DNA from: Enterobacteria phage phi80
DNA: 46,150 bases
Sequence record: NC_021190.1
Strand: one strand, 5' to 3'
In this document: piece by piece, positions 39,001 through 42,000 of the stretch
Layout of the letters: each line of letters opens with the position of its first letter
Position numbering within the stretch: the stretch's first letter is position 1
Made by a program: the position numbers

Positions 39001-42000
39001 ACTCAAAGACTGGCGCGAGAAGAGAAGCCTTTCACAAAATAGTCTGAGCCACGTTTGGTACAAGGAAATAAGCGACTACCTGATCAAGTCTGGGCGCACT
39101 GACGCAACGCCTGCATGGGTAAAGCGAAACCTCAAAAAAACTTATCTGGGTTATGAAGAGGTTGAGTACACCGATTTCGTCACCGGAATTAAGACGATTG
39201 AATTAGAACTCCGCCACACGTCCGATCTGGACACTGGCGACATGCACCATTTCATGTGCCAGGTGGAAGGCTGGTGCGCTCAGTTTGGCCTGGTGCTCAC
39301 AATCCCTCAAAGCAGCGAATTTCAGGTGCTGCGCGATAAGCAGGAGGCCTGATGTCAACTCCACTTTCCCGCGTCATCACAAACGAAATCTTTCGCGTTC
39401 CGGCGCGCCGCAAGCCTAAGCCCGCGGTTAAGCCATCCGATATCCCGACCCTGAAAGACTACACCGCCCGCCTGGTGGATCAGAAATGGCTGCGACTCGC
39501 GGCGAGGAGAAAATCTGCATGAGCATGTATCAACGCATTAATGGCGCTGACTGGCGCAATATTTTCGTCGTCGGCGATCTGCATGGGTGCTACACGCTGC
39601 TGATGAATGAACTCGAAAAGGTTTCGTTCGACCCTGCGTGTGATTTGCTGATTTCGGTTGGAGACCTTGTTGACCGCGGCGCGGAAAACGTCGAGTGCCT
39701 GGAGCTGATTACTATGCCTTGGTTCCGGGCTGTGCGAGGTAACCATGAGCAGATGATGATTGATGGGCTATCGGAGTATGGAAACGTTAACCACTGGCTG
39801 GAAAACGGCGGCGTGTGGTTCTTCAGTCTTGATTATGAAAAAGAGGTGCTGGCTAAGGCTCTGGTTCATAAATCGGCCAGCCTGCCATTCGTCATCGAGC
39901 TGGTTACCGCTGAACGTAAAATCGTTATCTGCCACGCTGACTACCCGCATAACGAATATGCGTTCGACAAGCCGGTCCCGAAAGACATGGTCATCTGGAA
40001 TCGTGAACGGGTTAGCGACGCTCAGGACGGCATTGTCTCGCCGATAGCTGGTGCTGATCTGTTTATCTTCGGCCACACCCCTGCGCGCCAGCCCCTGAAG
40101 TATGCCAACCAGATGTACATCGATACTGGTGCCGTGTTCTGCGGAAACCTCACGCTGGTACAGGTTCAAGGTGGTGCCCATGCGTAAACCATCCCGCCGT
40201 AAGTGCAAAGTATGCGGTGAATACTTCGTGCCGAAATTCCACGACATCCGGATCCGGTGGTGCAGCCCGGAGCATGGCGCAATCCTCGCAATGGAAGAAC
40301 GCAAGAAGGAGAAGGTGAAAGCCGCGGCTAAGCGCATCAAGGAGCAAAAAGAGGCTGAAAAGGACGGGCGCAAACGCCGCAAGGAGCGGCTGGCAGAGCT
40401 CAGGCCAGACGGATACTACAAGGCTCAGGCTCAGAAAGCTTTCAACGCCTTTATCCGTGCGCGCGACGCCGATTTGCCATGCATCAGCTGCGGCGAGACC
40501 AATCCGCCTGATCTGCATGGTGGCCAGTGGGATTGCGGCCATTTCAAGACAGTAGGTGCTTACCCTGAACTGCGCTTTGAAGAACGCAACGCCCATAAGC
40601 AGTGCAAATCCTGTAATGCCGGAGCTGGCAAGTACACCGCCAAAGAGGCGACCGTGGCGCAGCAATACGAAGCTGGGTTGGTCGCTCGTTACGGTCAGGG
40701 ATACGTCAACTGGCTCAATGGTCCCCACGAAATGACCAACTACCGCCGTGAAGACTTCATCCGGATCCGGGATGAGTACCGCGACAAGCTCAAAGCACTG
40801 AAACAGCGGGAGGCAGCATGAAACCAATGATATTCGATCTCAAGCTACCTCATTGGGCTTTTCTGCTTGAGTGTCCGTTCTGTGGCGGCGGCGCAGAACT
40901 TTTTTCTGATGGTGATGGTGTCTACGCCGGTTGTTCAACAAAGCAATGCTTGATTAAGCCGATAACTGACACCTATCCAACAAAGCGCGATGCAATTCGC
41001 GCCTGGAATCGGAGGCCATCATGACCAGAGACGAGATAACCCGATACCAGGCCGAAAGCGTTAAGCGCGCCAGCATGCCGCCAATAGTAAAGCACAGCCA
41101 GACCAAAACCCACCAGCCACAGAAGGAAGCCGCATAATGAACCTCGAATCAATCGCTAAATACTTTGCGCCTAAATCACCGATGTTCAGTGACTCTCCTC
41201 GCGCAACCGCATCAGACAGTCTCACCGGCACTGACGTTATGGCGGCGCTTGGCCTTGCTGGCCACAAGTGCGGGTTTGGTTTCGATCTTTACCTCTCGAA
41301 AATCGGCATTAGCAGCCCAGATATAGCACTGGAGAGACTCTATGAGCAGGCACGTAAGTTATCAGGTAAATTCAGAGCACTGTCTGAACTCGATGAATCA
41401 GCTCGGTCAGGCGTGCTTAAGGTTCTCTGCGCTTTTGCATACCAGGATTATTCAAGAAGTGCTGCCAGCACTCGAAAATGTGATTGCTGTGATGGTGGCG
41501 GATTTACAGAGGCGCAAGTGTTTACCAACAAGGTCTCATACCCATGGGGGAAACCGCCTTACTGGTCGAAAATGTCGCGTGCCGTTCGCCCAAGCGACTG
41601 GGAGAGCTGGACACAGGCGCGTGAGGTGGTGCGAGTTAAGTGCAAGCCGTGTAACGGAAAAGGCGTTATCAGCAATTCGTGTCGCTGCCATGGCAAAGGT
41701 AAGGTGCTGGACAAGGCAGAAAGCGATCGCCAGGGCGTTCCAGTAATGAAAGCCTGCGACCGCTGCGGTGGTAGAGGTTACGCCAGGCTTAAGTTCTCAA
41801 CGGTAATTGAGGGCGTTAATACTGTTGCGGAGATAAAGAAAACGGCGGCATATGAGCAACTTCAGCCGCTATTTGAGGAGTTGGTCGCCGAATGCCATAA
41901 ACAGGAGTCTATGGCTGATTCCATTCTCTCAAAAGTAACGAGATGAAAATAATTTTCCCTAATGTTGAAAATATATAGGAAATAGGTATTGCATTTCGCG

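What the first reader, a model, noticed from the sequence alone, without database searches (positions are those of the whole stretch)
41137..41946. Q-position protein with four DnaJ-type CxxCxGxG zinc-finger repeats
The gene directly upstream of the pR'-like promoter and tR' terminator should be the late antiterminator, but it is 269 aa with four CxxCxGxG repeats, an architecture I associate with DnaJ cysteine-rich domains rather than lambda Q.
Basis: partly seen in the sequence, partly recalled or inferred. Interest (0 to 1): 0.4.

Follow-up and report, generated by a model that had tools for sequence, protein, structure and literature searches.

The report
Phage phi80 Q late-gene antiterminator
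This gene is the already-known late-gene antiterminator Q of coliphage phi80, an ordinary member of the lambda Q family. Its four cysteine knuckles are the usual form of that family (lambda Q is the short exception), not a DnaJ-like oddity.

Summary
It has three exact CxxCxGxG motifs (C115, C169, C207) and one CxCxGxG variant (C182-R-C184).

The difference is a 69-aa insertion (113-181) at the body/arm junction. It carries two more knuckles that flank a predicted long beta-hairpin. This four-knuckle form is the family norm: 25 of 34 full-length representatives at 50% identity have exactly four knuckles, and 5 are lambda-like.

DnaJ resemblance is at motif level only (24 bits, below the Pfam cut-off of 32.7, with no fold match).

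The window is phage phi80. The Q region is 100% identical to the phi80dlacZdM15 lysogens DH5alpha and DH10B. Phi80 Q is the subject of Guo & Roberts 2004.

Verdict: already known, low interest. The only open point is what the extra zinc ribbon does.

The parts
41137..41946 (+). Q gene of phage phi80 (269 aa plus stop), a lambda Q-family late-gene antiterminator
   Evidence: ORF. PF03589 E 1.3e-34. PHROG 127 E 1.5e-92. Lambda Q 7UBM E 2.7e-47. 100% identical DNA in DH5alpha and DH10B, annotated 'antitermination protein'.
41137..41316 (+). Residues 1-60: N-terminal segment homologous to the part of lambda Q that is disordered when free and refolds with NusA into the RNA-exit-channel nozzle
   Evidence: Closely similar to lambda Q over the first ~40 residues (MxLESxAK..PKSPMxSDSPRATASDSLxGTDVMAA). 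AF2 pLDDT is below 50 at residues 14-25. The role in lambda Q is from PMC9388147. The role here is inferred.
41317..41472 (+). Residues 61-112: first half of the helical body, ending in the conserved RSAAS (107-111) that matches lambda's RNAP beta' ZBD-contacting S110-A112
   Evidence: Alignment to lambda Q 61-114. Helices 61-76 and 87-107 in the model. R107, S108, A109, A110 and S111 are invariant in 114 sequences.
41473..41679 (+). Residues 113-181: insertion relative to lambda Q. Knuckle M1 (C115xxC118xGxG, nt 41479-41502), a long beta-hairpin (123-134 / 157-168) with a variable tip, and knuckle M2 (C169xxC172xGxG, nt 41641-41664). Predicted second zinc ribbon.
   Evidence: Gap in the HMMER alignment to lambda Q. 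Cysteines invariant in 115 homologues. Secondary structure from AF2, block pLDDT 78-84. Present in 28 of 34 family representatives. Zinc binding is inferred, not shown.
41680..41784 (+). Residues 182-216: lambda-type arm (zinc ribbon). Knuckle M3 (C182-R-C184-H-G-K-G, nt 41680-41700, a CxC variant), strand-helix-strand, and knuckle M4 (C207xxC210xGxG, nt 41755-41778).
   Evidence: Aligns with lambda Q 118-152. The spacing from second Cys to next first Cys is the same 23 residues (C184 to C207; lambda C121 to C144). E189-191, H193-199 and E204-206 match lambda's B1-H3-B2.
41785..41943 (+). Residues 217-269: second half of the body, which in lambda Q carries the helix-turn-helix, plus the C-terminal helix with the conserved flap-tip-helix contact positions (L264, T268 = lambda L202, T206)
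41989..42017 (+). Inferred late promoter pR': -35 TTGCAT (41989-41994), 17-bp spacer, -10 TAGATT (42012-42017)
   Evidence: Positional alignment with lambda TTGACT-17-TAAATT. Hexamers conserved in relatives. Not flagged by the consensus scan.
41999..42010 (+). Candidate Q-binding element: conserved block CGGAAAAACTGG inside the promoter spacer
   Evidence: Nearly invariant in the relatives whose Q is 76-100% identical; changed (CGCGGAATTT..) in those with 70-71% identical Q. Lambda's Q-binding element (QBE) lies in the corresponding spacer according to my own knowledge. Inferred, not mapped here.
42025..42033 (+). Sigma-dependent pause element-like sequence AACGCT followed by GGG (lambda: AACGAT GGG)
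   Evidence: Invariant in all 65 aligned non-lambda downstream regions, as part of TAACGCTGGGAAT. Same position relative to the -10 hexamer as in lambda, within 1 bp.
42025..42100 (+). Short pR' leader RNA (about 75 nt) ending at the first terminator; the 5' end is not determined
   Evidence: Fold dG -26.9 kcal/mol, z -4.1. Conserved together with Q as one module.
42068..42100 (+). First intrinsic terminator (tR'-like): an 11-bp stem and a T-run
   Evidence: Terminator scan. Compensatory stem changes in relatives L071 and L079-L082.
42360..42387 (+). Second intrinsic terminator ahead of the holin gene
   Evidence: Terminator scan: 9-bp stem plus TTTTTT.
42425..43576 (+). First late genes expected to depend on Q read-through: holin (42425-42649), lysozyme (42627-43121), Rz (43106-43576)
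   Evidence: Pfam Phage_holin_2_1, Phage_lysozyme and Phage_lysis.

Best explanation
The gene encodes Q of coliphage phi80, a lambda Q-family transcription antiterminator that switches on the late genes.

Inferred mechanism, by homology with the solved lambda Q complexes:
- RNA polymerase starts at the promoter just downstream of Q (-10 at 42012-42017).
- It pauses a few nucleotides later because sigma70 region 2 rebinds the -10-like AACGCT (42025-42030).
- Q binds a site in the promoter spacer through its helix-turn-helix body and its lambda-type zinc-ribbon arm (residues 182-216).
- Q contacts sigma region 4 with the arm tip.
- Q contacts the beta' zinc-binding domain through the conserved SAA (108-110) and HGKGK (185-189) segments, and contacts the flap-tip helix.
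- With NusA, its highly conserved N-terminal segment refolds into a nozzle on the RNA-exit channel.
- The modified polymerase then ignores the terminators at 42068-42100 and 42360-42387 and transcribes holin, lysozyme, Rz and the morphogenetic genes.

The four Cys knuckles most likely form two separate zinc sites in tandem. M3 plus M4 make the lambda-type arm. M1 plus M2 sit at the base of an inserted long beta-hairpin (residues 113-181). This is not the nested 1-4 / 2-3 arrangement of DnaJ.

Shown here: homology, anatomy, conservation and genomic context. Inferred: every mechanistic step and zinc binding by M1/M2.
For: Family and fold:
- PF03589 at 118.7 bits against a cut-off of 26.7.
- PHROG 127 matched over its full length.
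- phmmer against lambda Q 7UBM gives E 2.7e-47 in two collinear blocks, 1-112 and 182-269.
- BLASTP against lambda Q gives 36% identity, E 9e-49.

Identity as phi80:
- Window 1-22908 is 99.7% identical to FN582354 'phage phi80'.
- Window 40800-42700 is 100% identical to DH5alpha, DH10B, NEB 5-alpha and HST04. That these strains carry phi80dlacZdM15 is established knowledge.

Context:
- Gene order is P, NinB, NinE, phosphatase, NinG, Lar, Q, holin, lysozyme, Rz.

Cis elements:
- The promoter, AACGCT-GGG, leader and terminator are conserved as one module with Q in 66 distinct downstream regions, and are followed by mosaic sequence.
- The terminator stem shows compensatory changes.

Knuckle pairing:
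- In lambda Q the counterparts of M3 and M4 hold the one zinc ion (PMC9388147).
- The M3-to-M4 spacing is identical to lambda's.
- In the full-length representatives M1 and M2 go with the insertion: it is absent from all 5 two-knuckle forms and present in all 28 long forms, of which 2 show only three recognisable knuckles.
- M1 and M2 flank the predicted hairpin 123-134 / 157-168.

Against: - Nothing here measures antitermination.
- The promoter hexamers match the consensus at only 7 of 12 positions and were missed by the consensus scan.
- The transcription start, the pause site and the Q-binding element were not mapped here.
- The -35-like TTGACT that lambda has 1 bp upstream of its pause element has no good counterpart (TTCATC, 3 bp upstream). 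Sigma region 4 repositioning may therefore differ.
- The insertion sits exactly between residues that contact the beta' zinc-binding domain in lambda Q. The loading-complex geometry might therefore not be identical.
- I could not read model coordinates, so M1/M2 zinc-site geometry is inferred from secondary structure only.
- BLASTP, unlike HMMER, aligns lambda's first knuckle with M1.
Confidence: 0.95

Rival explanations
1. The protein is a DnaJ-like zinc-finger chaperone or redox protein that merely occupies the Q position and does not act as an antiterminator.
For: - Three CxxCxGxG motifs and one variant.
- A sub-threshold Pfam DnaJ_CXXCXGXG match at residues 169-215 (24 bits).
- Weak NCBIfam DnaJ matches (E 0.01-0.7, 9-15 bits against cut-offs of 377-556).
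- A Foldseek match to DnaJA2 with E about 1.
Against: - All DnaJ scores are far below the curated cut-offs.
- No J domain, G/F region or C-terminal substrate-binding domains were found.
- The knuckles are inferred to pair in tandem, not nested.
- The rest of the protein is lambda Q from end to end.
Confidence: 0.01
2. Another ORF of the phage supplies Q function, from the Q21 or Q82 family or a novel one, and this gene is a decayed or accessory paralogue.
For: None found. Lambdoid phages are mosaic, and not every ORF of the window was scanned.
Against: - None of the 16 other ORFs tested between 37204 and 46080 has a Q-type match; several have no assigned function and one small ORF has no match at all.
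- The gene is intact, with all knuckle cysteines and the functional positions conserved.
- It is conserved as one unit with the promoter, pause element and terminator module immediately downstream.
- No PF06530 or PF06323 match for this protein at E up to 1.
Confidence: 0.02
3. It is an antiterminator, but the four knuckles form DnaJ-style nested zinc centres: M1 with M4, and M2 with M3. On this reading lambda Q arose by deleting the inner centre.
For: - BLASTP aligns lambda's first knuckle with M1.
- M2 and M3 are only 5 residues apart.
- The Pfam DnaJ profile spans M2 to M4.
Against: - The M3-to-M4 spacing equals lambda's exactly, and 9 of the 23 residues from H185 to C207 (lambda H122-C144) are identical to lambda (counted by eye), whereas the sequence after M1 is unlike lambda.
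- Short-form relatives P0156 and P0219 keep the M3-type CxC knuckle.
- The AF2 secondary structure puts M1 and M2 at the two ends of one long hairpin, and reproduces lambda's strand-helix-strand between M3 and M4.
- A 5-residue linker is short for a zinc site between M2 and M3 (inference).
Confidence: 0.07

Closest known systems
Phage phi80 Q (Guo & Roberts 2004, J Bacteriol 186:3599; RefSeq WP_001047620.1 in DH10B)
   Same: This is the same protein. The DNA is 100% identical in phi80dlacZdM15 lysogens, and the left arm of the window is 99.7% identical to a phi80 record.
   Different: Nothing differs. The paper itself could not be read here, so its findings are not used as evidence beyond its existence and title.
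Lambda Q (PDB 4MO1, 7UBJ-7UBN; Pfam PF03589)
   Same: - Same family and same genome position.
- The N-terminal ~40 residues are closely similar.
- Same helical body and C-terminal helix.
- Same zinc-ribbon arm, with identical knuckle spacing.
- Same layout of promoter, -10-like pause element and terminator.
   Different: - Phi80 Q has a 69-aa insertion (113-181) at the body/arm junction, with two extra knuckles and a long hairpin.
- Its first arm knuckle is CxC, not CxxC.
- The leader RNA is about 75 nt rather than lambda's about 194-nt 6S RNA (the lambda figure is from my own knowledge).
- The promoter-spacer sequence differs in its upstream half.
- There is no good TTGACT-like element next to the pause element.
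Long-form lambda Q-family proteins of other phages and prophages (ES18 gp73, mEp237, mEp460, the gene annotated quuQ in Stx2a-converting phage Stx2_EH1910, Klebsiella phage RAH1)
   Same: Same four-knuckle architecture. These matches span 250-276 aa in the phage records (family range 231-280 aa among the representatives) and are 40-78% identical to phi80 Q. They are annotated as antitermination protein Q.
   Different: They differ in hairpin-tip sequence and length (insertion of 29-78 aa) and in whether knuckle 3 is CxC or CxxC.
DnaJ cysteine-rich domain (Pfam PF00684)
   Same: It shares the CxxCxGxG zinc-knuckle motif, and there are four knuckles in one polypeptide.
   Different: - The score is below the Pfam cut-off.
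- There is no fold match.
- Knuckle spacing is 54 / 13 / 25 residues from first Cys to first Cys, against about 17 / 22 / 14 in E. coli DnaJ (the DnaJ figures are from my own knowledge).
- The inferred pairing is tandem rather than nested.
- There are no J, G/F or C-terminal domains.

Membership tests
Lambda Q family (Pfam PF03589 'Antiterm') | Profile match above the curated gathering score | tested here: met
   118.7 bits against a cut-off of 26.7, E 1.3e-34. PHROG 127 Q-like E 1.5e-92 over profile positions 1-252 of 253.
Lambda Q family (Pfam PF03589 'Antiterm') | Collinear homology with lambda Q, including the N-terminal nozzle-forming segment and the C-terminal helix | tested here: met
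   phmmer against 7UBM_Q gives E 2.7e-47; residues 1-112 match lambda 1-114 and residues 182-269 match lambda 118-207. L264 and T268 correspond to lambda's flap-tip-helix contacts L202 and T206.
Lambda Q family (Pfam PF03589 'Antiterm') | Four-helix body with a helix-turn-helix, plus a zinc-ribbon arm (fold) | tested here: met
   [not shown]
Lambda Q family (Pfam PF03589 'Antiterm') | Four zinc-ligand cysteines of the arm, with conserved spacing | tested here: met
   C182, C184, C207 and C210 are conserved. The C184-to-C207 spacing of 23 equals lambda's C121-to-C144. The first knuckle is CxC instead of CxxC. Metal binding itself was not tested.
Lambda Q family (Pfam PF03589 'Antiterm') | Gene lies at the end of the nin region, directly upstream of a promoter with a -10-like pause element, terminator(s) and the lysis genes | tested here: met
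Lambda Q family (Pfam PF03589 'Antiterm') | Q-binding-element-dependent loading at a sigma-dependent pause, and terminator read-through | not testable with these tools
   This needs in vitro transcription or reporter assays. A paper on phi80 Q DNA binding exists (Guo & Roberts 2004; cited) but could not be read.
DnaJ cysteine-rich domain (Pfam PF00684) | Profile match above the gathering score | tested here: not met
   24.0 bits against a cut-off of 32.7, covering profile positions 1-52 of 65. NCBIfam DnaJ models give 9-15 bits against cut-offs of 377-556.
DnaJ cysteine-rich domain (Pfam PF00684) | Four canonical CxxCxGxG repeats | tested here: not met
   Three repeats are canonical. The third is CxCxGxG, and this variant is conserved in 114 of 115 close homologues.
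DnaJ cysteine-rich domain (Pfam PF00684) | DnaJ domain context (J domain, G/F region, C-terminal domains) and the V-shaped nested two-zinc fold | tested here: not met
   [not shown]
Q21 family (PF06530) and Q82 family (PF06323) | Profile match | tested here: not met
   Neither family appears in the Pfam scan of this protein at E up to 1.

The most novel reading that the evidence does not exclude
The inserted second zinc ribbon (residues 113-181) is present in about 28 of 34 clusters of the lambda Q family but absent from lambda Q, the only member with solved structures. On this reading it makes a functional contact of its own in the loading or loaded complex, for example with upstream DNA, the beta' zinc-binding domain, NusA or the nascent RNA. 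The lambda Q structures would then describe a stripped-down version of the family's usual mechanism.
Probability: 0.35. Interest if true: 0.35.

Novelty: already known. Interest (0 to 1): 0.08.

Why it matters
It matters little as a discovery. The gene is Q of phi80, a classic laboratory phage whose prophage sits in DH5alpha and DH10B. It belongs to the best-studied Q family and is already annotated as an antitermination protein.

One point is worth keeping. Lambda Q, the textbook and structural reference, is the minority short form of its own family. Most members, including this one, carry an extra Cys4 hairpin module. It is inserted exactly at the surface that contacts the beta' zinc-binding domain in lambda Q. 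Its function has, as far as I could find, not been addressed structurally.

Tried and rejected
1. Megablast of the Q region against the phage collection gave only fragmentary hits to Klebsiella phages and HK639. The full phi80 genome is apparently not in that collection. Identity came instead from the left arm and from E. coli lab strains.

2. I tested whether the insertion is a duplication of the lambda-type arm. An HMM of the arm searched against the insertions gives only marginal scores (best full-sequence E 7e-4, single domains 6-8 bits). hhalign aligns just 12 columns around one knuckle (probability 29%). There is no evidence beyond motif-level similarity.

3. The DnaJ relationship was rejected at profile and fold level.

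4. Rfam on the leader gave only sub-threshold hits (isrJ 25.1 bits against 37, mostly the terminator half). Three relatives gave nothing at gathering threshold. In Gifsy-1 the sRNA next to the Q-like gene is IsrK, not IsrJ (PMC4825925). I dropped the idea that the leader is a known sRNA.

5. Guo & Roberts 2004 (PMC415771) and Vorobiev et al. 2014 (PMC3951671) are not held in the library.

6. The tRNA scan of the window was empty, unlike some relatives that carry tRNAs after the first terminator.

7. Model coordinates are not exposed to the sandbox, so Cys-Cys distances could not be measured.
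Full report
**What is there**

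The ORF at 41137-41946 on the + strand runs from ATG to TGA and encodes 269 aa. Its start codon overlaps the stop of a 38-aa upstream ORF (TAATG). The protein has 12 cysteines.

Eight of these cysteines (nine counting C117 inside M1) lie in four knuckles:
- M1: C115-D-C-C118-D-G-G-G
- M2: C169-K-P-C172-N-G-K-G
- M3: C182-R-C184-H-G-K-G
- M4: C207-D-R-C210-G-G-R-G

Three knuckles fit CxxCxGxG exactly. M3 is one residue shorter (CxCxGxG). The short form is genuine. C182, R183 and C184 are kept in 114-115 of 115 close full-length homologues. Across the wider family the CxC form is commoner than CxxC. Three exact motifs never arose in 200,000 shuffles of the protein, and even one arose in only 0.28%.

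**What it is**

The Pfam match is PF03589 'Antitermination protein Q' at 118.7 bits against a cut-off of 26.7. DnaJ_CXXCXGXG reaches only 24.0 bits against a cut-off of 32.7. PHROG 127 'anti-termination protein Q-like' matches from end to end (E 1.5e-92). NCBIfam DnaJ models score 9-15 bits against cut-offs of several hundred.

Against solved structures, the best sequence match is lambda Q itself (7UBM chain Q, E 2.7e-47). The match comes in two collinear blocks: residues 1-112 with lambda 1-114, and residues 182-269 with lambda 118-207. An AlphaFold2 model built on 114 sequences (mean pLDDT 82) finds lambda Q as its top structural match:
- Foldseek: 7UBN_Q, E 7.8e-13, target-normalised TM 0.74.

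**Why the 'DnaJ rather than lambda Q' contrast fails**

Lambda Q has two such knuckles of its own, CRDCHGTG (118-125) and CGRCKGVG (144-151). They hold the zinc ion of its 'arm', a zinc ribbon at residues 114-152 inserted in a four-helix body that carries a helix-turn-helix (PMC9388147).

In the present protein M3 and M4 are the counterparts of those two knuckles:
- The distance from the second Cys of the first knuckle to the first Cys of the second is 23 residues in both proteins.
- Of the 23 residues from H185 to C207 (lambda H122-C144), 9 are identical to lambda (counted by eye).
- The model reproduces lambda's strand-helix-strand (E189-191, H193-199, E204-206).

What is extra is a 69-aa insertion (113-181) exactly at the body/arm junction. 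It consists of M1, a predicted long beta-hairpin (123-134 and 157-168) with a poorly conserved tip, and M2.

BLASTP instead aligns lambda's first knuckle with M1. I reject that alignment because of the spacing, the arm identity, and the short-form relatives that retain an M3-type CxC knuckle (P0156, P0219).

The most likely arrangement is therefore two zinc ribbons in tandem (M1+M2, then M3+M4), not DnaJ's nested centres. This is an inference. Neither coordinates nor metal content could be examined.

A test for duplication of the arm found only knuckle-level similarity.

**How common the four-knuckle form is**

The word-indexed search returned 667 homologues. The best 120 are nearly all 250-283 aa, and those that carry a source name are called antitermination protein. 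tblastn found the protein in 247 phage records. These include long forms in ES18, mEp237, mEp460, Stx-converting phages and Klebsiella phages, and 207-aa forms in lambda, P22 and epsilon34.

In the exhaustive search of 50%-identity representatives, 34 hits are full length:

| Knuckles | Representatives |
|---|---|
| Exactly four | 25 |
| Three or five | 3 |
| Two (lambda-like) | 5 |
| None (an N-terminal chimera) | 1 |

The insertion in the long forms is 29-78 aa. The four-knuckle architecture is thus the family norm and lambda Q is the reduced form.

**Identity of the window**

Window 1-22908 is 99.7% identical to FN582354 'Enterobacteria phage phi80'. Window 40800-42700 is 100% identical to the chromosomes of DH5alpha, DH10B, NEB 5-alpha, NEB 10-beta and HST04. 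By established knowledge these strains carry the phi80dlacZdM15 prophage. In DH10B the same 810-nt CDS is WP_001047620.1, 'antitermination protein'.

The window is laid out like a complete lambdoid genome from cos: terminase at 190-2632, and replication, nin, Q and lysis genes at the right end. The gene is therefore phi80 Q.

[quoted passage not shown] It appears in the reference lists seen. The paper itself is not held in the library, so I use only its existence.

**Surroundings and cis elements**

Upstream are P, NinB, NinE, a Ser/Thr phosphatase, NinG and Lar. Downstream are a P21-type holin, lysozyme and Rz. No other Q-like protein turned up among the 16 other ORFs tested between 37204 and 46080.

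Between the Q stop and the holin gene lie:
- TTGCAT (41989-41994), a 17-bp spacer, then TAGATT (42012-42017).
- Seven bases, then AACGCT-GGG (42025-42033).
- A strong terminator hairpin (42068-42093 plus T-run).
- A second terminator (42360-42381).

Lambda has TTGACT-17-TAAATT, six bases, then AACGAT-GGG. The layout is the same, including the -10-like sigma-dependent pause element.

I aligned 260 bases downstream of the Q stop from 81 sequences, 66 of them distinct; one is lambda. The stretch from the -35 hexamer through TAACGCTGGGAAT and the first terminator is conserved as one block in the non-lambda sequences. Everything beyond the terminator is mosaic. The terminator stem shows compensatory changes.

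The spacer block CGGAAAAACTGG (41999-42010) is nearly constant where Q is 76-100% identical. It changes where Q is 70-71% identical. That makes it the candidate Q-binding element; it was not mapped here.

The predicted leader of about 75 nt folds well (dG -26.9 kcal/mol, z -4.1).

Caveat: the promoter hexamers match the consensus at only 7 of 12 positions, and the simple scan did not flag them.

**Mechanism**

The mechanism is inferred from the lambda Q structures (PMC9388147). Features that support the same mechanism here:
- The N-terminal ~40 residues are closely similar to lambda's. In lambda Q this segment is disordered when free and refolds with NusA into the nozzle on the RNA-exit channel.
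- The flap-tip-helix contact positions L202 and T206 correspond to L264 and T268.
- The beta' zinc-binding-domain contacts S110-A112 and H122-R126 correspond to S108-A110 and H185-K189.
- The arm-tip residue E134, which contacts sigma region 4, corresponds to D197.

Loading at a sigma-dependent pause, exit-channel remodelling and terminator read-through should therefore work as in lambda.

The unknown is the inserted ribbon. It emerges between two segments that touch the zinc-binding domain in lambda Q. Its strands are conserved (F123, V128, F129, K132 and E163) while its tip is not. It may add a contact or may be a structural embellishment. No data here decide between these.

**Verdict**

The functional guess that this is the late antiterminator is right. 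The suggestion that the architecture sets it apart from lambda Q is wrong. This is a known, annotated and experimentally studied protein of a classic phage, so novelty is 'already known' and interest is low.

Noticed in passing
window 1-46150: The window appears to be the complete genome of coliphage phi80, laid out from cos. The left 23 kb is 99.7% identical to a phi80 record. The Q-lysis region is 100% identical to the phi80dlacZdM15 prophage of DH5alpha and DH10B.
   Followed up: partly
window 42025-42100: The roughly 75-nt promoter-proximal leader RNA is conserved together with Q in 66 distinct relatives. It folds stably (z -4.1). Its Rfam hits are only sub-threshold (isrJ 25.1 bits against a cut-off of 37, mostly the terminator half). 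Short pR'-tR' transcripts act as sRNAs in other prophages (StxS, IsrK), so it might have a trans function.
   Followed up: partly
window 42101-42424; loci L002, L012, L014, L050 and others: Sequence right after the first terminator is a mosaic slot. Klebsiella phage RAH1 has an annotated tRNA-Gly there, and several other relatives show tRNA-like sequence at that position in the alignment (not checked with ARAGORN). Phi80 has no tRNA anywhere in the window, but has a second terminator at 42360-42387.
   Followed up: partly
window 41021-41137: A 38-aa ORF has its stop overlapping the Q start codon (TAATG). It is annotated 'hypothetical protein' in DH10B and has no PHROG match. The corresponding position in Klebsiella phage RAH1 holds a 'YlcG family protein'.
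   Followed up: partly
[not shown]
   Followed up: no
window 40102-40821 and 39486-40187: The longest NinG ORF (from ATG 40102) overlaps the phosphatase gene by 86 nt. RefSeq in DH10B starts NinG later, giving a 642-nt CDS, so the mechanical ORF start is probably too far upstream.
   Followed up: no
window 43739-44293: A Rha-like regulator or anti-repressor gene sits just after the lysis cassette. This parallels the anti-repressor (anrP) placed downstream of the Q-like antQ gene in Salmonella Gifsy-1 (PMC4825925).
   Followed up: no
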